In this document: in pieces, positions 4,404 to 57,844 of the stretch
How the letters are laid out: each line of letters opens with the position of its first letter
Numbering within the stretch: position 1 is the stretch's first letter
Origin: Schmidtea nova
Lineage: Eukaryota
Assembly: GCA_044892505.1 (NCBI GenBank)
Contig: CM097882.1
Span: 153,078,001-153,142,000 of the forward strand
Length of the DNA stretch: 64,000 bases
Reading direction: 5' to 3'
The notes under the pieces: model-generated
Database searches by the model: none
What the model was told of the DNA's origin: nothing
The model's input: only the letters and a program-made list of their open reading frames with translations
Made by a program: the position numbers and the translations under genes

Positions 4404-7400
4404 AAGGGTATGCACAAACGAATTGAAAATTTCAATATGTTAAATGCGGTCTGAGCAGCCAATAATCTAACAAAAAACTGAACTGTTCCTTTTACATTTT
4501 TTATTTTGCTTTATATTTTCGACTGAATAGCAACGAACATAGGAAAAACATCGTGTTATTATAATTTGGGCATATTTTGCAAAATAGTGTTCTTGCTGCA
4601 CTTGGGAAACTTCTTGCGATGCTCACGTACGACCTGTAATGCAAACTGAGTCTGTTCATCGTCCTTTGTCAGCAAGCCGCTGAATTCTTGAATCATAGCA
4701 ATTCCTCTCTCTGCTGTGTCATTTGTGACTCTTAATTGTCGCACAATTTCTTCGCCATATAAATAATCTTCTCTTATGATCCATGTGATTGGATCAGCTT
4801 CCATGAATGCCTCAGATAATGATAGCAATTCAAAGAATTGCTGGTGACAAAATTGTGCAACTGTAGTTCAAGGATGTATTCTTTCTTAACCGTGATTCGT
4901 TTCTTGGGATTAGGTTTAGCTTTCTTTTGCAGTTCATTCAGCATGCTCTTCTTTTTTTCGACACACACTTCTCGATCAAATAACGCAAGAGCCACTAAAT
5001 CTTCACTCAAGTACCAAAGATGTCCGAGAATTTATTGAGAGTACATTTTGATGCTACGGAATTGAGAATAGCCAGCTTCTTAAGCAGTTGTAAGTCGTTA
5101 GAGGGAGCCATTGAAGGAACTAAACACAGCAACCACGATTTGACATACGCTTGCACCCCAAATAAGCACACTTCGGCCAATCCTTTCCTTTCGCATTCCG
5201 TAAGCTTGAAATTTGTGTCTCGGAACAGGAATATATTGTAGGAATACAACAGCTTCGCCATAAACCGTGCGCGATGCAAAGCTCCAGGTTTGAGAAAATG
5301 AACTCCACGTGGTGGAACGCCACCCAGGAAGATGATCACTAATTCAAGGAGTTCCATGCAGTCATAACGTGGCTGCACGTTTTGTAGTTGATTGGTGCCG
5401 AATTGAATCATCTCAGCTATGTCTTCTTGCAGCGCTATATGAACGCTTTGATCAGCAATGCCGTACTTGTAGGAGTTAACTTCGATGTTGGGCCAGAATG
5501 ATTGAAATCGCTTAAAGAGAGGGATGTTGGGACCACTTGATGGACCCATTGATTGAAGGAATATCTCTTCAAGCATTATCTCATGAATATGATGCCGACA
5601 TGCGAGGTGAAGGATGCTTTAAAACAGAACACAAGCTTCACTTTTCAGTCCAGTATTGCTCGCAGTCGTATAAAAACTTAGACCTTTGATGCGTTCTTGT
5701 AGACCCCATGAAGTCACTGATTCTACTAGAGCATTGGCAATTTCTTTACCTGTACCATTTGAAAGTTTGGGAATAGCAAGGAGCTGCTCACTTCCTGAGC
5801 CTGAAACGATTATGGCAAGTCGGTCCACATTCCGCTCTCCTGTCACATCTTTCAATATTTTGCCATCGAAATGAAGAATCAGTGGTTTTTTAGGATCAAA
5901 ATTTTCTTTCACGTGAGCTGTTGTGACAGAACGATGCATGAGACTAACACGATGAATTGAAGATCGATTTATGTTAAATTCAGCTACATCTCCTGCAGAT
6001 GCTTGGACAGCTGCTGACAGATTTTGAACAGCCGAACGGATGCTGGTTTTAGTGCGATCAAGAGATGACAAAACTTCAGGCCTCAACAAAGTTCGCATGC
6101 CTCTTTTACACTTCCGAGGGGTTTGATTTCCATTCCCATTTCCAAATATGGAATATGAAGTGTCTTCATCATTGGATTTAGTCTCGCTTGAAGAAATAGC
6201 TGCCTTGAGCTGTGATGAATTACATTCTTCTTTCTGTTTTCTTTCAAATTGTAATCGTTTCTTTTGTTGTGCAGTAGCTTTCTTTTCTTTCCGCGCTAGA
6301 GACGTATCCACACCAGCCATTGAACTAATTCGTCCTTTTTCTCTTTGAGCTAACAGAAACTGTCGATCTTCTTCAATTTTAATTAATACCTGTGCGTCTT
6401 CATGAGCAATATCAAAGAAATCAGTGAAAGTCTGATTCAGCCCGTTTTCATTTGCAGTTTGTGTTGTAGATTGGCGTCCTTTGCTTTACTTGAGATTTTC
6501 CCACCTCGTCATTTTCTTTTCAAGCTGTTTAACGGCTTGGTGACGTGGTCTCACTGGAATCCATGCTCTATTCGAAAACTCCTCCACTTCAATTATTGTT
6601 TGTAACGCAGCATCATGTTTACTTTCAGCACAGGTCTGCAGTTTGTGCAGGTAGATACCCGTTACATCACCAATAGAAGGCAATTTAGCTCCAGCAAGAG
6701 TTTCCTTAATTGATCCAAGTAGATAAACATTTGCATTACTTCTCGTAATACAATTCATACTAAAGCAATAAGGAAATATAAATAATTCAATTAACATGGT
6801 TTGATAATTAAAAATGAACTGTAAGCACTTATACCTACTCCGTATTAGAAAATAGATAGCTCTCAGTGTATTTAAATTTGCACAAAATTTATAAAAAATT
6901 AAAACAAAATAATAATAATAGGGTTCATTCCAAATTAAATTACTGCATTGTTCTATTTTCTGTCTTTTATCAATAACTTTTGAAAGACATAAGACAAATT
7001 CGTTCTATTTTTTAATTTAATCATAAGAACTTTATTTTATTAGTGAAATTAATTTGGTATTAAAATGTATGAAGTTGACTTGTTTAAATGCTGTATTATT
7101 TGGCGGTTTTAAAAAACACGCATCTTCACCTTCTGTACCATCGTTGACAGTAACCATGTCACACTTAATTTTTCTAAAATTTTTATTAATTTCTGTTCTG
7201 TAAGGTATTTTAAATGCTGAAGAAAATATATAGCTTTGAGAGTATTTAAATTTGCACAATATTTATAAAAACTTAAAACAACTTGCGCATACCCTGAATC
7301 AACAGTGATCAATTAAATATTTTCCCAAACTTAGTTTCTTATATGGGAGCACTTTCTAAAGGGTGAGGACAATGATTTTGTGATTTTAAAATTTTTTGTC

Positions 7401-7417
7401 TTTTAAGGGACACCCTA
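4404..7417 (-). mobile_element. 3014-bp hAT-superfamily DNA transposon (hATm-like), both termini present, no TSD
   Basis: The termini read TAGGGTGTCC (minus strand from 7417) and AAGGGTATGC (plus strand from 4404) and enclose a single transposase relic. TAGGG termini and the protein motifs fit the hATm group as I recall it; the subgroup call is less certain than the superfamily. Confidence 0.78.
4559..6797 (-). pseudogene. Disrupted DDE transposase (hAT/hATm-like)
   Basis: Four ORF-track pieces join into one protein: LILHFDGK (first D), SFYTTASNTG (expected FDTT, so D>Y), LHLACRHHIHE (CxxH), GHLWYLSEDLVALALFD, LRVTNDTAERG (catalytic E). Lesions: in-frame TAA at 6486-6488 and 5619-5621, frameshifts near 5030 and 4830. 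Confidence 0.88.
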
Positions 7418-7646
7418 CTGTACACGAGTTAAAAAGCATACAAGAAAGAGCTGAAAGAGTAACATTATGGAGCATAATGAGACTTGCAAGAAAAGCATTG
7501 AGAATTTCCAATTTCAAAATACTTTCTACGGGTTCTAAAAATTATTATGAACGTGTAAATTGTGAGGGTTTGATGATAAAAGCATTTAATTAAAATAAAC
7601 ATACAAAATGCAATATCTACATGCATTTTGAGAGTTTTTAATTAAT

Positions 7647-9272
7647 GTAAATGTAAAAGCTATGAAATGCACCATTAGTTATTGTAGCAAAGAAAGACGG
7701 AAACGTTAGAATATGCATGGATTACAGAGGCTTAAATTCAATTATGAATGCTTGATAGGCAATATTTGTAAGACTATTTAGCAGATTCAAAATAAAGCTC
7801 GTCAATCAACTTGGGACAGGCATACTATCAAGTCGGTGTAGCGCCAGAAATTCAAGAATTAACTCTTTAAGTACTAAAGAAGGGAAATTTTTAATTTCAC
7901 CAGATTAGCATTTGTATTAGCAACGGCCCCAGCAACATTTCAAAGGCTAATGCATACATTACTAGATAGCATTATCTTTAAATGAGTTATTGTGTACTTA
8001 GACGATATTTTACTTTATTGGTAAACTAAAGCTGGACACGATAAAATGCTAGAAACAGTTCTCAATAGAATTCAAGATGCAGGTTTAAAGATCAGCTACG
8101 ATTATATAAAAAAGAGTTAATTTTCTTGGACATGCTGTAAGCGCAAATGGAATCCAGATGAATGATAAAAGAATTGAAGAAATCCAAAATGCAAATATAC
8201 CACAATGTGCCAAGCAGTTACGATCATTCTTGTGCATGACAAATTATTATAGAAGATTCATTAAAGATTTCGCAAAGATTGCAGCTCCGCTTTATCAGGC
8301 AAAAACGGGATGCGAGAAGAAAATTTCATATACAAAAGAATGCGAAGATGCTTCTCAAACTCTCAAGGACAAATTGTGTGAAGCTCCAATATTGGACTAT
8401 CCGAGTAAAAACCGAAACTTTATGCTAGATACATATGCCAGTTTCTGGGCTATTGGAGCAGTTTTAAGATAGTAGAAAGAGAATGGGTTAAGGTTACTGT
8501 GTCACAAGAAAAGAACTACTTGCTAAACACAAAAATGTGAGTTATTTTTATCAATACATGTATGAGAAAGATTTGTAGTGCGAATAGATCAAAGAGCGTT
8601 AATATTTATGAATACAATAAAGCAAGCAAATTTTCCTCAATTTCAAACCTGGATGGCAAATTTATCAGAATATTACTTTGAATTAAGATATCATAAGGGA
8701 GAAGATCATTCAAATGCCGATGGATTATCCAGGATAAAAAGAATAGTATATGCACAATGTCAAACGAGACACGAGAATGCTAAGGAATGTTATTCACAGA
8801 GTTAGACACATCTGCATAATCCAGAAAACAGAGACAATGAAACAAATAATAGAAGCGCAAGAAAAAGATGCCAAGTTTTACAAAATGAAGGAATAACTCG
8901 ATGAACTCAGTTTAAATATGACAATATTCGATCCAAAAGATTATCTTTACAAACTAAGGAATGACTTGAAAGTAGAGAACTTTCTGAAGATCAAAAATGA
9001 AGGACTGGATTTAGTACTCGTTAAAAAAATTAACGAAGAACTTTGTCACATTGGAGTAAAAAAATTAGTACATTACTTAAAAAACTTTTTCAATGGCCAA
9101 GCATGCACATTACAATCAGAGAATGCCTACAAAAATGTGTGAAATAGGAAAAGCAGAAAATAAACTCAGAGCAGACTAAAGAGATTCTAATAACGCGAAC
9201 AAGTACAGAGTCTTATGGATCAAATAATTATCGAAATTGCTTATATGAAACCACTAGCAACGAAAGGGTATG
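7647..9272 (+). pseudogene. Ty3/Gypsy pol fragment, copy 2
   Basis: Copy of 1763-3388 (identical ORF-track peptides). Confidence 0.9.
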
Positions 9273-9315
9273 AAGGTCGATTTAACGGCCACCTCGAAAC
9301 ATGATGGCAATCAAT

Positions 9316-9317
<2 letters not shown>

Positions 9318-9371
<54 letters not shown>
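9318..9371. repeat. (AT)27 microsatellite
   Basis: Counted directly. Confidence 0.95.
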
Positions 9372-9373
<2 letters not shown>

Positions 9374-10239
9374 ATCATATGATTTTACAAACAAGTTTCT
9401 AAAGATCAAATATTTAATCCTTTTTTCCTCATAGATATGTAAAGTTTTAAATATCTCTTGAATATTGGAACTGAAGTACAACCTATTTTAAATAAACTAT
9501 TAAATAAAAATGGCAATTTATTCAAATAAATAAAATTATATATAAAATTAGAATAGCTTCTGGCAATGTATACAAATCAGTAACTTTTTTTCCTATAAAT
9601 TTCGGTTTCAAAATGTTTATCTTTCTTTTCAATCAAACAATCAAGAAATGATAATTTAGAATTAATTTCTTCTTCAAAAATAAATTTAATATTTTTATGC
9701 TAATTAGTATTATAAAAGAAATATGATAAGGGATTGGTTTATCGTTCATGGACATTGCCGTCAACTTATTGTAAATGTATAACTATTATTGATAAATTAC
9801 TTAATATACTACAGAATAACGCATGGTGAGTGAAACTGTTGATTAGTGTAATAATAAATTGAATGTGATTGATGACAAAATGTCTCCTGGTGTTCATCGT
9901 TTAATTTCCTTGATATTATATCTTTGATTGAAACAGTTGATGTTGTTATAGGAATGAATGATGGTGTTGATGGTAATAATAATGAAATAAATAAAATTTA
10001 TTTGAAGGATAGCATTGGTTTTGTTATAGTTTTACCTTTTTCTGAGGATTTTGTAAATTTTAGAAATTCTATTATAAAAAATATTGGATTCATCTCTGTA
10101 CAGTGTCAAGAGATGAATACAATATTTTTTATAATAGATTATTTTTCAAGTTTCGACTATCTACTCTCTCACCCTTTCAGTGTAGTCCCTCTATGAAAAT
10201 AAAACTGTATGCAAAATATTTGCCACAAAAAACGATTTT

Positions 10240-45424: not shown

Positions 45425-48400
45425 AAGGGTATGCACAAACGAATTGAAAATTTCAATATGTTAAATGCGGTCTGAGCAGCCAATAATCTAACAAAAAACT
45501 GAACTGTTCCTTTTACATTTTTTATTTTGCTTTATATTTTCGACTGAATAGCAACGAACATAGGAAAAACATCGTGTTATTATAATTTGGGCATATTTTG
45601 CAAAATAGTGTTCTTGCTGCACTTGGGAAACTTCTTGCGATGCTCACGTACGACCTGTAATGCAAACTGAGTCTGTTCATCGTCCTTTGTCAGCAAGCCG
45701 CTGAATTCTTGAATCATAGCAATTCCTCTCTCTGCTGTGTCATTTGTGACTCTTAATTGTCGCACAATTTCTTCGCCATATAAATAATCTTCTCTTATGA
45801 TCCATGTGATTGGATCAGCTTCCATGAATGCCTCAGATAATGATAGCAATTCAAAGAATTGCTGGTGACAAAATTGTGCAACTGTAGTTCAAGGATGTAT
45901 TCTTTCTTAACCGTGATTCGTTTCTTGGGATTAGGTTTAGCTTTCTTTTGCAGTTCATTCAGCATGCTCTTCTTTTTTTCGACACACACTTCTCGATCAA
46001 ATAACGCAAGAGCCACTAAATCTTCACTCAAGTACCAAAGATGTCCGAGAATTTATTGAGAGTACATTTTGATGCTACGGAATTGAGAATAGCCAGCTTC
46101 TTAAGCAGTTGTAAGTCGTTAGAGGGAGCCATTGAAGGAACTAAACACAGCAACCACGATTTGACATACGCTTGCACCCCAAATAAGCACACTTCGGCCA
46201 ATCCTTTCCTTTCGCATTCCGTAAGCTTGAAATTTGTGTCTCGGAACAGGAATATATTGTAGGAATACAACAGCTTCGCCATAAACCGTGCGCGATGCAA
46301 AGCTCCAGGTTTGAGAAAATGAACTCCACGTGGTGGAACGCCACCCAGGAAGATGATCACTAATTCAAGGAGTTCCATGCAGTCATAACGTGGCTGCACG
46401 TTTTGTAGTTGATTGGTGCCGAATTGAATCATCTCAGCTATGTCTTCTTGCAGCGCTATATGAACGCTTTGATCAGCAATGCCGTACTTGTAGGAGTTAA
46501 CTTCGATGTTGGGCCAGAATGATTGAAATCGCTTAAAGAGAGGGATGTTGGGACCACTTGATGGACCCATTGATTGAAGGAATATCTCTTCAAGCATTAT
46601 CTCATGAATATGATGCCGACATGCGAGGTGAAGGATGCTTTAAAACAGAACACAAGCTTCACTTTTCAGTCCAGTATTGCTCGCAGTCGTATAAAAACTT
46701 AGACCTTTGATGCGTTCTTGTAGACCCCATGAAGTCACTGATTCTACTAGAGCATTGGCAATTTCTTTACCTGTACCATTTGAAAGTTTGGGAATAGCAA
46801 GGAGCTGCTCACTTCCTGAGCCTGAAACGATTATGGCAAGTCGGTCCACATTCCGCTCTCCTGTCACATCTTTCAATATTTTGCCATCGAAATGAAGAAT
46901 CAGTGGTTTTTTAGGATCAAAATTTTCTTTCACGTGAGCTGTTGTGACAGAACGATGCATGAGACTAACACGATGAATTGAAGATCGATTTATGTTAAAT
47001 TCAGCTACATCTCCTGCAGATGCTTGGACAGCTGCTGACAGATTTTGAACAGCCGAACGGATGCTGGTTTTAGTGCGATCAAGAGATGACAAAACTTCAG
47101 GCCTCAACAAAGTTCGCATGCCTCTTTTACACTTCCGAGGGGTTTGATTTCCATTCCCATTTCCAAATATGGAATATGAAGTGTCTTCATCATTGGATTT
47201 AGTCTCGCTTGAAGAAATAGCTGCCTTGAGCTGTGATGAATTACATTCTTCTTTCTGTTTTCTTTCAAATTGTAATCGTTTCTTTTGTTGTGCAGTAGCT
47301 TTCTTTTCTTTCCGCGCTAGAGACGTATCCACACCAGCCATTGAACTAATTCGTCCTTTTTCTCTTTGAGCTAACAGAAACTGTCGATCTTCTTCAATTT
47401 TAATTAATACCTGTGCGTCTTCATGAGCAATATCAAAGAAATCAGTGAAAGTCTGATTCAGCCCGTTTTCATTTGCAGTTTGTGTTGTAGATTGGCGTCC
47501 TTTGCTTTACTTGAGATTTTCCCACCTCGTCATTTTCTTTTCAAGCTGTTTAACGGCTTGGTGACGTGGTCTCACTGGAATCCATGCTCTATTCGAAAAC
47601 TCCTCCACTTCAATTATTGTTTGTAACGCAGCATCATGTTTACTTTCAGCACAGGTCTGCAGTTTGTGCAGGTAGATACCCGTTACATCACCAATAGAAG
47701 GCAATTTAGCTCCAGCAAGAGTTTCCTTAATTGATCCAAGTAGATAAACATTTGCATTACTTCTCGTAATACAATTCATACTAAAGCAATAAGGAAATAT
47801 AAATAATTCAATTAACATGGTTTGATAATTAAAAATGAACTGTAAGCACTTATACCTACTCCGTATTAGAAAATAGATAGCTCTCAGTGTATTTAAATTT
47901 GCACAAAATTTATAAAAAATTAAAACAAAATAATAATAATAGGGTTCATTCCAAATTAAATTACTGCATTGTTCTATTTTCTGTCTTTTATCAATAACTT
48001 TTGAAAGACATAAGACAAATTCGTTCTATTTTTTAATTTAATCATAAGAACTTTATTTTATTAGTGAAATTAATTTGGTATTAAAATGTATGAAGTTGAC
48101 TTGTTTAAATGCTGTATTATTTGGCGGTTTTAAAAAACACGCATCTTCACCTTCTGTACCATCGTTGACAGTAACCATGTCACACTTAATTTTTCTAAAA
48201 TTTTTATTAATTTCTGTTCTGTAAGGTATTTTAAATGCTGAAGAAAATATATAGCTTTGAGAGTATTTAAATTTGCACAATATTTATAAAAACTTAAAAC
48301 AACTTGCGCATACCCTGAATCAACAGTGATCAATTAAATATTTTCCCAAACTTAGTTTCTTATATGGGAGCACTTTCTAAAGGGTGAGGACAATGATTTT

Positions 48401-48438: not shown

Positions 48439-48840
48439 CTGTACACGAGTTAAAAAGCATACAAGAAAGAGCTGAAAGAGTAACATTATGGAGCATAATG
48501 AGACTTGCAAGAAAAGCATTGAGAATTTCCAATTTCAAAATACTTTCTACGGGTTCTAAAAATTATTATGAACGTGTAAATTGTGAGGGTTTGATGATAA
48601 AAGCATTTAATTAAAATAAACATACAAAATGCAATATCTACATGCATTTTGAGAGTTTTTAATTAATTTTTCTAGGAGTTTTATTGGATTGTGCACATGT
48701 GATTATGTAATCACTAATAATCGTGTAAATAAGATCAATTTTTATTTTATTGAAATTGTGTAAAGCCTGATGATGACAGCTAAGCTGTTGAAATATATTG
48801 CATTAAATAAGTTGTTGTTTGAATAATTATTTTTCTTGGT
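48439..48840 (+). mobile_element. 3' remnant of a Penelope-like element: GIY-YIG C-terminus plus 3' UTR/pLTR with hammerhead; spans the array boundary; right end approximate
   Basis: The GIY-YIG-like peptide (48439-~48640) is followed by ~120 bp and a minimal type I hammerhead, the usual PLE 3' layout. Confidence 0.6.
48761..48805 (+). ncRNA. Minimal type I hammerhead ribozyme motif (PLE-type)
   Basis: UAAAGC-CUGAUGA-U-GACAGC uaa GCUGUU-GAA-AUAUAU-U-GCAUUA. Canonical core, 6-bp stem II, palindromic AUAUAU stem III, stem I 5/6 paired, predicted cleavage after AUU at 48799. Confidence 0.7.
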
Positions 48841-49281
48841 GAACAAATATTTAAATTTGAAGTTAGGTTGTTTTTGATATAATGATAAATTATTTAGAAA
48901 ACTCTATAAATCTTTTTCTGTTAAACTGGAAATTAAGTAAAACAAATCCCATATATAAATTTGTAATATAAATTTATTTAAAATTCATTACATAATGCTA
49001 ATTTTATTCATTTTTTCCGATAATAGTGAAATATAATCAAAGTCACTGACTTCTTCAAGTGTAATTTCTGGTGTTATTTAAAATAGTGTTATTATTATGT
49101 TTAAGTTATTAGGAAATTAAAATAAAATTTTCATCGTATTGTTAAAACATAAAAATATTTTCTTCTAAAAATTAAAATTTAATTTAAATAATTTATTATA
49201 TTTTCTATTCATCTACATTTATTATTATTATCAATAATTCTCATAATGACTATAGATCAAAATTTTTTTTTATAAACAATA

Positions 49282-49314
49282 ACACAATATTTCGGCACAG
49301 CCTTTATCAAGTGT
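49282..49314 (-). ncRNA. Variant minimal hammerhead motif (U3-A8 core, extra A after A9)
   Basis: The minus strand reads ACAC-UUGAUAA-A-GGC ugu GCC-GAA-AUAU-U-GUGU: stem I ACAC/GUGU, stem II GGC/GCC, palindromic AUAU stem III. Confidence 0.55.
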
Positions 49315-49501
49315 GTATAATTAAATTTGCACAAAATTTATAAAAACTTAATAAAGGCTGTGCCGAAATATTGTGTTATTGTTTATAAAAAAAAATTTGA
49401 TCTATAGTCATTATGAGAATTATTGATAATAATATTATTATTATTATTATCAATAATTCTCATAATGACTATAGATCAAAAATTTTTTTTTATAAACAAT
49501 A

Positions 49502-49534
49502 ACACAATATTTCGGCACAGCCTTTATCAAGTGT
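49502..49534 (-). ncRNA. Variant minimal hammerhead motif, copy 2
   Basis: Identical to 49282-49314. Confidence 0.55.
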
Positions 49535-49720
49535 GTATAATTAAATTTGCACAAAATTTATAAAAACTTAATAAAGGCTGTGCCGAAATATTGTGTTATT
49601 GTTTATAAAAAAAATTTGATCTATAGTCATTATGAGAATTATTGATAATAATATTATTATTATTATTATCAATAATTCTCATAATGACTATAGATCAAAG
49701 ATTTTTTTTTATAAACAATA

Positions 49721-49753
49721 ACACAATATTTCGGCACAGCCTTTATCAAGTGT
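49721..49753 (-). ncRNA. Variant minimal hammerhead motif, copy 3
   Basis: Identical to 49282-49314. Confidence 0.55.
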
Positions 49754-49940
49754 GTATAATTAAATTTGCACAAAATTTATAAAAACTTAATAAAGGCTGT
49801 GCCGAAATATTGTGTTATTGTTTATAAAAAAAAATTTTGATCTATAGTCATTATGAGAATTATTGATAATAATAATAAAAAAAGATCAAAGGTGAAAAAA
49901 GATAATTATGATCTACATTTATGTTTATTTAAATTTTTAG

Positions 49941-50096
49941 TGGATATCGGGGATTATTGTGACGATAATAAAGATGTTTGCCGCTCAAAAAAAGCAATTT
50001 GTGCTGAAAAGTCAATGAATAATCAAATCAAGATTTGTATTTGTCCGAAAGGTTATATAAAGTTATATCAGTCAAATCTTCACTACCATGAGTGCT
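49941..50096 (+). CDS. Internal exon (phase 1-1, 156 bp) of a host gene encoding a cysteine-rich EGF-like module
   Basis: TTTTTAG acceptor and GTGAGT donor; DIGDYCDDNKDVCRSKKAICAEKSMNNQIKICICPKGYIKLYQSNLHYHEC with EGF-like CxC spacing. Confidence 0.75.
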
Positions 50097-50690: not shown

Positions 50691-52040
50691 CAGGCAGTTA
50701 TTTAGATATTGCAGTTTATAATGAACGTCTGCAGAGCAAATATGAACAGCAATGGGAACAAAGATCACAAATACCTTTAACATGCTGCATGCGCACATCT
50801 ACACACGCACTCACTCACACACACATAAAGACACACATAATATGACTACTCACACCAGACACACAACAGTGATAACAATGAGTCATGTTAATGAAGAATT
50901 GTCATTTTCTTAGAATATGGCTACTCGGAAAGAGCTTACAGACTTTCATCAAAGCATTATTTACGGATTTTATCTTTGAGGAAAAAGTCAAAGTGAAACT
51001 GCTGCATTGACTGACAATTCCAAAGAAACTATTAACTATCTGATAAAGTACCATCGGGAGCAGACACATATCAACACGCAACGTTCAGGCCGCCCTAAAC
51101 TTCTGAGCATCCGTACACAACGGCAGCTAAAACAACTTGTGGTGGCTTATCGTTGGTTCCCCCTTTCCATGTTAGTGTCCACATTTAACACTGTCCCTGT
51201 GCATGCTAACATGTCCACCATTCGTGGCGCATTACATTTTCATGGTTTCTATGGCAGATACTACACAAGGAATCCTTTAATTACAAAAACAATACTTCGT
51301 CGTGGCTTGAAATGGTGACGGGAGAGAAGGAGTTGGACAGTAAAAAAATGACGCTCAATCATTTGGAGTGGTAAATTGCGTTTCACTTTTTTCAAATCTG
51401 ATGGACATCAATTCTGCTGAAGTCGCGTAGAAGAAAGATTTCACCCTGACTAAACTCAACCAAATGTGAAATATGGAGGAGGCTCTATTATGTTTTGGAG
51501 TCTTGTCTCAGCTCGTGAAACTGACTCTCTAGTGAAGTGCAGCAATCACATGACATCAGTGGAATACCGCCCCATTCTGGAAAATGAGCTTGTTCCCTTT
51601 CTCCCAGAAATTGAAGGGCTCATTTTCCAACAGGAATGCACCAACCCATACTTCGTACATTATGAAGGAATTCTTTCTGCAGCACAGCATCAACGTTTTG
51701 GAATTGGCTCCATAAAGCCCTGATCTGAATCCTATTGATTTTCTGTGGGACGTCCTTAGTAGACGAGTTCGCAAAAGGATTCCCATTGCCCATACCGCTT
51801 CCGAACTGGAAACGCATCTGCATTAGGAATGGTCACACATCTATCCTGATTTTCTGGCAGAAGTATTCGATACAATGCCTAAACGAGTGCGTCTTTTTAT
51901 ATAGATAAAAGGTAATATAACGAAGTACTAACTCTAAGCACTACAGACATTCAGTATTCGTGTGTGTTTATGACATTTGTTCCCATTGCTGTTCATTATA
52001 AACTGTTCATTATAAACTGCAATATGTAAATAACTGCCTG
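50691..52040 (+). mobile_element. Tc1-like (Tc1/mariner) DNA transposon, 1350 bp, defective
   Basis: TIR CAGGCAGTTATTTAGATATTGCAGTTTATAATGAAC matches the reverse complement of the right end at 35/36; the inner IR ATGAACAGCAATGGGAACAAA is also mirrored. TA TSD not preserved. Confidence 0.9.
50917..51931 (+). pseudogene. Tc1 DD34E-type transposase pseudogene
   Basis: MATRKELTDF..RSGRPKLLS..IIWSGKLRF (first D lost)..VKYGGGSIMFW..FQQ (frameshift at DNAP)..SPDLNPIDFLW; multiple stops and frameshifts. Confidence 0.9.
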
Positions 52041-57465: not shown

Positions 57466-57844
57466 ATCATAATTATTTTTTTTCACCTTTGATCTATTTT
57501 AATATATTAATCAACGATTCCCATAATGGTAAGAGTATAAATCAAAATTTCTTTAAATAAGTACTCAATATTTCGACACAGCCTTTATCAATCTTTATAT
57601 TAACTTAATCCTAAATACTAACCTTAATTATTTATTTTATATTTTATAATGAATTTATTGGATGAAAATAATGAGCACACTAAACACACTAAAAACAAAA
57701 CCAGTAATATTATTCACACCTGATAAAGGCTGTGCCGAAATATTGTGTACTTGTTTAAAGAAATATTGATAGTCTTACCATTATGGGAATTATTGATATT
57801 AATATTAAAAAATATCAAAGGTGAAACAAAAAGATAATTATGAT
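57466..57844. repeat. Second member of the hammerhead-arm inverted-repeat family: ~125-bp imperfect arms around a 130-bp unrelated spacer
   Basis: Arms share ATCATAATTAT..CACCTTTGAT..CATAATG..CAATATTTCG(G/A)CACAGCCTTTATCA with 49223-49910. Confidence 0.85.
57716..57748 (+). ncRNA. Hammerhead-like motif with C3.A8 mismatch (probably inactive)
   Basis: ACAC-CUGAUAA-A-GGC ugu GCC-GAA-AUAU-U-GUGU. Confidence 0.45.

What the first reader, a model, noticed from the sequence alone, without database searches (positions are those of the whole stretch)
49211..49922. Triple-palindrome insertion with hammerhead motifs in both polarities: candidate rod-folding retrozyme-like element
Seen: three tandem ~220-bp monomers. 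Each is a near-perfect palindrome (arms ~85-90 bp, 33-nt loop), the monomers are joined by palindromic (AAT)n/(ATT)n linkers, and an exact 12-bp direct repeat flanks the whole block like a TSD. Each monomer has an intact-looking minimal hammerhead on the minus strand and a broken one on the plus strand (UUAAUAA, no stem I). Established: minimal type I hammerheads with palindromic stem III occur in Penelope pLTRs and in tandem metazoan retrozymes, where monomers are excised and circularised. Inference: this is a PLE-mobilised non-autonomous element whose excised ~220-nt monomer would fold as a viroid-like rod or long dsRNA. I do not know of a retrozyme with a fully palindromic monomer. Caveat: on either strand the hammerhead is transcribed after its own antisense arm, so the long hairpin could block cleavage.
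Basis: partly seen in the sequence, partly recalled or inferred. Interest (0 to 1): 0.8.

Follow-up and report, generated by a model that had tools for sequence, protein, structure and literature searches.

The report
Tripled hairpin stump of Penelope retrotransposon
The three palindromes are copies of one stump-sized insertion of an abundant Penelope-like jumping gene, likely folded into a mirror image in DNA as it landed and likely tripled on the spot, so this is likely not a new circular RNA, though its roughly ten thousand sibling hairpins likely record where the element's RNA begins and where its ribozyme cuts.

Summary
The triple palindrome, the 12-bp flanking repeat and the minus-strand hammerhead motifs are real. 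The retrozyme reading is not supported. Each arm is the end repeat (pLTR) of an autonomous 2,767-bp Penelope-like element (PLE) in the same genome. The 36-nt 'tail' on the last arm completes the first 20 codons of that element's reverse transcriptase gene.

The genome holds 34,358 exact copies of the hammerhead and 10,648 short head-to-head hairpins. Loops differ from locus to locus (67 kinds in 74), and both arms of one insertion share rare variants. This locus's loop matches DNA 1.4 kb upstream. The hairpin was therefore likely built at insertion and is not a conserved RNA monomer. Same-loop multimers are rare (2 of 48 other junctions), so the triple is likely a local duplication; an assembly error is not excluded.

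This is the published PLE 'inverted pLTR + tail + TSD' pattern, and the scan noted such stumps before in other genomes. The added value is that fold points pile up just upstream of the hammerhead and, in a minor class, at its predicted cut site. That is possible fossil evidence of cleavage in vivo.

The parts
49211..49222 (.). Left target-site duplication ATCTACATTTAT
   Evidence: 12-16-nt duplications at 5 other loci with non-simple flanks
49223..49318 (-). Monomer 1, inverted tail-less pLTR copy; its 5' end lies 11 nt upstream of ATAAAGG
   Evidence: 99-100% identical to the pLTR of full-length elements in L081-L083; extent
49282..49314 (-). Minimal type I hammerhead motif (U3-A8 core, extra A after A9, 3-bp stem II, AUAU stem III); predicted cut between 49,286 and 49,285
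   Evidence: same motif class in PMC4209133. Activity untested
49319..49350 (+). Locus-specific loop, templated insert; identical in all three monomers (also at about 49,539-49,570 and 49,758-49,789)
   Evidence: 26-nt exact match to 47,893-47,918; 30 of 31 to 48,267-48,297 (read); the 26-mer has 96 genome copies
49346..49433 (+). Monomer 1, sense pLTR copy with damaged hammerhead start (UUAAUAA), no tail
49425..49451 (.). Junction 1: GATAATAAT|ATTATTATTATTATTATC, without target duplication or tail
49434..49652 (.). Monomer 2 (inverted pLTR, loop, sense pLTR); hammerhead motif 49,502-49,534 on the minus strand
49644..49670 (.). Junction 2, identical to junction 1
49653..49874 (.). Monomer 3; hammerhead motif 49,721-49,753 on the minus strand
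49853..49912 (+). First 20 codons of the parent PLE ORF (MRIIDNNNKKRSKVKKDNYD)
   Evidence: Same letters open the 865-aa ORF in L082
49875..49912 (+). PLE 'tail', on the last arm only
   Evidence: 100% match to the parent; exactly one tail in 37 of 38 census hairpins
49911..49922 (.). Right target-site duplication; its first 2 letters overlap the end of the tail
47893..47918 (+). Nearest exact source of the loop, in the last unit of the neighbouring 5.8-kb tandem array

Best explanation
The block is a minimal insertion of an autonomous Penelope-like retrotransposon (one pLTR with its tail plus an inverted tail-less copy, between 12-bp duplications) whose hairpin was likely built in DNA during integration and then likely tandem-duplicated twice at this locus.

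Shown: the identity of arm and tail with the parent, the one-tail asymmetry, locus-specific loops, and shared variants between the two arms.

Inferred mechanism: the element's endonuclease makes a staggered break in AT-rich DNA. Reverse transcription starts inside the ORF start, at the two ends of the tail, as measured in vitro for the Anolis element. On a transcript that begins at about GAAAUACAC, just upstream of the hammerhead, it runs off after only about 95 and 130 nt. The two cDNA ends are joined head to head by microhomology repair, which here copied about 30 nt of neighbouring DNA into the loop and destroyed the start of the plus-strand hammerhead. I favour two primings on one RNA over simple snap-back of one cDNA.

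The palindrome then likely expanded by hairpin-assisted slippage between its (AAT)n and (ATT)n ends, which keeps all loops in one orientation. The hammerhead is a passenger here and is predicted to be blocked in the hairpin.
For: Parent: arm and tail match full-length 2,767-bp tandem units at 99-100%. The ORF is 865 aa with RVT_1 at E 1.4e-07. Its relatives carry PF00078 and some PF01541, and the C-terminal YxL..YIG motif, Cys/His residues and a cysteine linker align.

Scale: 34,358 hammerhead 32-mers; 10,648 hairpins with spacer up to 60 nt; 10,728 arms with upstream parent sequence; 906 read-throughs into the ORF.

Fixed 5' end: of 124 census arms, 93 stop 0-16 nt upstream of ATAAAGG (53 at 11-13), none at 17-24, and 31 run 25 or more.

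Built at insertion: 67 distinct loops in 74 hairpins. 9 of 97 inverted pairs share a non-major haplotype on both arms, against 0.22 expected and at most 3 in 5,000 shuffles. One tail in 37 of 38. This loop matches a 26-mer 1.4 kb away that has 96 genome copies, 12 of them in the adjacent array.

Two primings: in this window the tail-less arm reaches further 5' than the tailed arm, and 7 of 74 centres are perfect palindromes.

Triple: of 48 other tail-to-tail junctions, one same-loop direct dimer and one same-loop inverted dimer.

The same anatomy is described in PMC3846280 and PMC8557442. Two start sites flanking the tail are shown in PMC11167929.
Against: No RNA data, so the transcript's 5' end is inferred from junctions only; a 3' splice site (TAG|AAAT), as in D. 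virilis Penelope, fits the same place.

Shared variants between arms could also come from later gene conversion or cruciform repair. In 39 of 97 pairs the arms differ, a few strongly (L121, L122).

Loops templated from flanks are not general: in 112 hairpins (this locus's three included), matches to own flanks were no better than to shuffled flanks once this locus is set aside.

The count 'tail-less arm longer' (23 of 74) is inflated, because a point change next to the core sets an extent to zero.

No record spans the triple. The monomers differ only at the A/T run, where long-read errors fall.
Confidence: 0.8

Rival explanations
1. Retrozyme-like element: a transcript of the trimer self-cleaves at successive minus-strand hammerheads, and the 219-nt monomer circularises into a rod and is re-inserted as multimers.
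For: Three same-sense hammerhead motifs 219-220 nt apart. The cut-to-cut monomer would fold as a rod if circular (-118 kcal/mol, 89% paired). Unit size is in the retrozyme range (PMC7229834). A search that only asks for two consecutive units with a complete motif (bioRxiv 10.64898/2026.07.22.740005) might list it.
Against: The loop 26-mer occurs in no other hairpin seen: its other genome copies were not inspected one by one, but the best 86 matches to the monomer include only this locus at 99-100%. Multimers are rare (65 junctions against 10,648 hairpins). The ends are PLE tail and TSD, not a cut-site permutation. Forming stems I and II costs 42-44 kcal/mol in the hairpin against about 1 in a lone arm. 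The exon-like frames next door lie on the plus strand, which carries only the damaged motif.
Confidence: 0.04
2. Same PLE origin, but the hairpin comes from snap-back of a single cDNA that primes its own second strand, resolved by an endonuclease nick at the start of the tail.
For: Explains shared arm variants and long inverted pairs that fold at nearly the same internal point (1912/1912, 2563/2566, 1584/1570, 2230/2215). Self-priming was proposed in PMC3846280.
Against: It cannot easily give a tail-less arm longer than the tailed arm (this window; L086, 120 against 1982) or zero-spacer palindromes. A broken RNA copied twice also explains symmetric fold points.
Confidence: 0.3
3. The single hairpin insertion is real but the triplication is an assembly or consensus artefact.
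For: Palindromes trouble long-read assembly. The monomers differ only at the homopolymer run. No contig spans the block. A nearly identical 5.8-kb array lies beside it.
Against: Fold-back chimeras would flip alternate loops, and all three are direct. Both flanks with the TSD are intact, and run X2 has contigs joining each flank to the element. A same-loop dimer exists elsewhere (L131).
Confidence: 0.12
4. A fold-back DNA transposon or MITE.
For: Short, AT-rich, palindromic, thousands of copies.
Against: The arms are the pLTR of a reverse-transcriptase element. The ends are asymmetric. Duplications are about 12-16 nt and variable. Many copies extend into the RT gene by variable lengths.
Confidence: 0.01

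Closest known systems
Canonical EN+ PLE insertion with inverted pLTR and tail (Adineta vaga Pen2a, PMC3846280; general scheme in PMC8557442)
   Same: Inverted pLTR about 37 bp shorter than the direct one, 30-40-bp tail on one end, pLTR and tail encode the first ~20 residues, variable TSD, AT-rich or microsatellite targets, head-to-head palindromic junction.
   Different: Here the insertion is reduced to the pLTR alone, such stumps number about 10,600, the fold point is sharply fixed, and this copy is tripled.
Poseidon of Anolis (PAc) in vitro, PMC11167929
   Same: Hammerhead near the ORF start; tail inside the ORF start; AT-rich targets.
   Different: PAc is Penelope/Poseidon clade. This parent has a cysteine linker before the endonuclease (Neptune/Nematis-like by motif; not placed on a tree). 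That paper found no reads ending at the hammerhead cut, while here a minor class of insertions appears to end there.
Minimal hammerheads of metazoan PLEs (PMC4209133)
   Same: U3-A8 core variant, extra base between positions 9 and 10.1, palindromic 15.2-16.2, pairs of motifs on opposite strands 100-700 bp apart.
   Different: Stem II is only 3 bp here (7-8 bp in the Schistosoma motifs); the opposite-strand pairs are closer.
Metazoan non-LTR retrozymes (PMC7229834)
   Same: Tandem units of about 220 bp, low GC, one same-sense type I motif per unit.
   Different: Retrozymes have canonical hammerheads and conserved monomers that give circular RNA. Here the motif is minimal, the monomer is unique to the locus and self-complementary, and no RNA is known.

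Membership tests
EN+ Penelope-like element | Single ORF with reverse transcriptase | tested here: met
   Parent ORF of 865 aa, RVT_1 E 1.4e-07 above cut-off; the window holds only its first 20 codons
EN+ Penelope-like element | C-terminal GIY-YIG endonuclease with CCHH | tested here: met
   Motif VYKLSCQKCDATYIGET..H..H aligned with relatives, two of which carry PF01541. Pfam itself gave no GIY-YIG hit on the parent
EN+ Penelope-like element | Tandem or partial-tandem units forming pLTRs with a hammerhead motif | tested here: met
   2,767-bp spacing in L081-L083
EN+ Penelope-like element | Inverted 5'-truncated copy and 30-40-bp tail on one end | tested here: met
   37 of 38 census hairpins have one tail; long inverted pairs
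EN+ Penelope-like element | Variable TSD, AT-rich or microsatellite targets | tested here: met
   63 of 74 hairpins have a simple repeat on at least one flank. Of 11 rows with non-simple flanks, 5 show 12-16-nt duplications; the rest are low-complexity, mismatched or this locus's own junction
EN+ Penelope-like element | Clade (Penelope/Poseidon, Neptune, Nematis, Hydra) | not tested
   No reference set on hand; the cysteine linker suggests Neptune/Nematis-like
Non-LTR retrozyme | Two or more head-to-tail units each with a type I motif | tested here: met
   At this locus, on the minus strand only
Non-LTR retrozyme | A family of conserved monomers, commonly multimeric | tested here: not met
   67 loops in 74 hairpins; 2 same-loop dimers in 48 other junctions
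Non-LTR retrozyme | Hammerhead able to fold in the monomer | tested here: not met
   Predicted only: 42-44 kcal/mol penalty, stem probabilities 0.0
Non-LTR retrozyme | Linear and circular monomer RNA in vivo | not testable with these tools
   No RNA holder listed
MITE or fold-back DNA transposon | Symmetric terminal inverted repeats and fixed short TSD | tested here: not met
   One-sided tail and 12-16-nt variable duplications

The most novel reading that the evidence does not exclude
The ten thousand hairpins are a fossil map of the element's RNA ends. Most fold at the transcript's start. A minority (several hundred) fold exactly at the hammerhead's predicted cut, with both arms stopping there, which would show that a minimal U3-A8 PLE hammerhead cleaves in vivo, that the cut RNA is still retrotransposed, and that PLE inverted repeats arise from two primings on one RNA.
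Probability: 0.5. Interest if true: 0.62.

Novelty: new member of a known kind. Interest (0 to 1): 0.38.

Why it matters
As a retrozyme candidate it should be dropped: it shows how an ordinary PLE stump can imitate one. As a PLE family it is useful. The papers read call the origin of PLE tandem and inverted structures and the role of the hammerhead unresolved (PMC8557442, PMC11167929). Here a young family with 34,000 near-identical ends and intact parents lets both questions be addressed by counting junctions, and then by simple RNA 5'-end mapping.

Tried and rejected
Rfam: no hammerhead family hit.

RNA evidence: no RNA holder listed. Only contigs could be laid; none spans the block, and no empty-site joint was among the 15 of 280 joints shown. 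Neither tells anything about expression or copy number.

General flank-templating of loops: not seen beyond this locus within 900 nt.

A conserved 'broken' plus-strand hammerhead: rejected as a 0.6% variant.

Rolling-hairpin or fold-back chimera origin of the triple: rejected because the loops do not alternate in direction.

Independent nested insertions: they fit most other tail-to-tail junctions (different centres) but not this one.

An alternative hammerhead fold cutting at AUA^G at the fixed 5' end: considered by eye and dropped, since no stem I forms.

A spliced or trans-spliced leader upstream of AAAUACAC: no shared upstream letters beyond one G in the loops, by eye.

The Terminon paper PMC5850863 was not held. 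Earlier findings by place and by sequence: none. The organism was not identified.

Full report
OBSERVATION. The block at 49,211-49,922 is as described. It has three 219-221-nt units, 98% alike, each a palindrome with arms of about 90 nt around a 33-nt spacer, between two copies of ATCTACATTTAT. Monomer 1 folds far better than shuffles (z -28). The minus strand has three motifs ACAC UUGAUAA A GGC UGU GCC GAAA UAUU^GUGU. Rfam does not recognise them, but the U3-A8 core, the extra base after A9 and the palindromic AUAU are the features reported for minimal PLE hammerheads (PMC4209133; parts 1-2 of 4 read). After the third unit, and only there, come 36-38 further bases before the right duplication.

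THE PARENT. A 32-nt hammerhead pattern has 34,358 exact matches in the window's genome, with 0 for the reversed control. Some pairs lie 2,767 bp apart in the same direction. Fetching them showed the arm and the extra bases at 99-100% identity in front of a long ORF. The ORF is 865 aa and begins MRIIDNNNKKRSKVKKDNYD; those 20 codons are window 49,853-49,912. It has a reverse transcriptase domain and 233 relatives, many with PF00078 and PF26215 and some with the GIY-YIG family PF01541. In an alignment with 7 of them the C-terminal endonuclease motif, its Cys/His residues and a cysteine linker are conserved. The arm is therefore the pLTR of an autonomous endonuclease-bearing PLE, and the extra bases are its 'tail'. 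10,728 arms keep upstream parent sequence and 906 read on into the ORF. I did not place the clade on a tree.

THE STUMPS. 10,648 places hold two hammerhead halves head to head within 60 nt. I took a census around the first 100 pattern matches on contig C1, which gave 124 arms, including a few segmental duplicates. 76 arms sit in 38 short hairpins, and 37 of the 38 have exactly one tail. 93 of the 124 arms stop 0-16 nt upstream of ATAAAGG, 53 of them at 11-13; none stops at 17-24; 31 continue into the parent. Solo arms stop at the same place. I infer an RNA 5' end at about GAAAUACAC. PMC11167929 (parts 1-2 of 4 read) shows for the Anolis element that reverse transcription starts at two internal sites flanking the tail and that both target strands are cut and extended. 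On a transcript that starts in the pLTR this yields stumps of just this size. Longer inverted pairs reaching into the ORF show that the stumps are the short end of a continuum. 63 of 74 hairpins have a simple repeat on a flank, and duplications of 12-16 nt are visible at 5 of the 11 rows with non-simple flanks. The whole anatomy is described for rotifer Penelopes (PMC3846280, passages) and for PLEs generally (PMC8557442, passages).

THE HAIRPIN IS LIKELY MADE AT INSERTION. 74 hairpins have 67 different centres (the set is partly chosen by likeness to this monomer). In 97 inverted pairs, 9 share a non-major haplotype on both arms; 0.22 are expected and at most 3 occur in 5,000 shuffles. In 39 pairs the arms differ, mostly by private changes. 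The loop here contains 26 bases identical to 47,893-47,918. That 26-mer occurs 96 times in the genome, 3 in this block and 12 in the adjacent array, so a chance neighbour within 1.5 kb is unlikely (about 1 in 5,000-10,000 by my rough estimate). The insert replaced the start of the plus-strand hammerhead; the UUAAUAA variant has only 204 copies. Templated inserts at microhomology joints are a known repair signature (recalled; papers seen only as a search listing). The same test on 112 hairpins found no general templating from flanks within 900 nt. Two primings on one RNA fit better than snap-back, because the tail-less arm can be the longer one (this window; L086) and 7 of 74 centres are perfect palindromes. 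This choice is inference.

THE TRIPLE. Tail-to-tail junctions like the two here occur 65 times. I examined 50. My script found both neighbouring centres in 20 cases, including this locus's two. Among the 48 others, one was a same-loop direct dimer (L131) and one a same-loop inverted dimer (L228); the rest look like separate insertions into the (AAT)n end of an older one. Three identical locus-specific loops in one direction point to duplication after the hairpin existed, likely by slippage. Contigs of run X2 join both flanks to the element, but nothing spans the block, so an assembly error stays possible.

RETROZYME READING. A cut-to-cut circle would be a rod, but forming the hammerhead costs 42-44 kcal/mol inside the hairpin against about 1 in a lone arm or in the parent's 5' end. 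Described retrozymes have canonical hammerheads and conserved monomers that give circular RNA (PMC7229834, passages; bioRxiv 10.64898/2026.07.22.740005, part 1 of 5). No RNA run was listed, so expression is untested.

A POSSIBLE RECORD OF CLEAVAGE. Some junctions lie at unit position 2,667, the base after the predicted cut (L125, L126). A pattern for hairpins lacking the hammerhead found 107. Counting by eye in the first 50 (one dropped for a mutation), the longer arm ends within one base of the cut in 25 of 49, ends 2 nt upstream in none, further upstream in 8, and shorter in 16; the 30-nt gap limit biases this against long arms. Arms with a foreign base directly before the cut number 479, against 238 and 269 for the positions 2 and 4 nt upstream. 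Inspection of the first 30 of each gave about 383, 190 and 143 true truncations. Where an inverted partner exists, it also stops short of the hammerhead in 16 of 17 cases at the cut against 11 of 29 at the control positions (Fisher p 0.0002). This fits a second template end made by self-cleavage, in roughly 1-3% of insertions. It is a sample, not a census, and sequence-dependent joining could contribute. Five searches listed no paper that reports this from its title or abstract; I read only the six papers named, and no supplements.

EARLIER SCAN NOTES. Three notes from other genomes describe similar PLE stumps, two of them saying the fold is built anew at each insertion. I read them after reaching this view (my reading is stated). 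One says the fold is beside, not at, the cut; that agrees with the main class here, and the minor class adds to it.

VERDICT. A real feature, made by a new family of a known kind of element. The retrozyme interpretation is unlikely. The family is a good natural data set for an open mechanistic question. Interest 0.38.

Noticed in passing
window 1-48,667 and upstream in G000:C1: Tandem array of a 5.8-5.9-kb unit, 99.6-100% identical, at least 12 copies by the spacing of one 26-mer. It holds fragmented transposase-like frames without a Pfam hit, a retroelement RNase H-like piece and an (AT)n run.
   Followed up: partly
window 48,767-48,799 (+): A different minimal hammerhead-like motif, CTGATGA TGACAGC TAA GCTGTT GAAA TATATT, likely the end of another PLE family (read).
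   Followed up: no
window 57,468-57,844: Older inverted pair of a related subfamily (78-85% alike) with a tail at both ends and a long spacer.
   Followed up: partly
window 49,941-50,096 and from about 50,150 (+): Cysteine-rich exon-like frames (weak EB/EGF-like match, E 0.014) separated by a 53-nt GT-AG gap. The insertion ends about 17 nt before the first acceptor; upstream exons were not found.
   Followed up: partly
window 50,980-51,318 (+): Tc1/mariner-type transposase remnant.
   Followed up: no
L131; L228: L131 is a same-loop direct dimer with the target duplication inside the junction; L228 is a same-loop inverted dimer with a long re-primed loop.
   Followed up: partly
L121, L122: Hairpins whose two arms look like different subfamilies, which would need two RNAs or later conversion.
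   Followed up: no
L082:2300-5400: The parent's words are held at 0.82-0.89 by runs under two organism labels and by one soil metagenome. Laid on the window, that metagenome covers only the element.
   Followed up: partly
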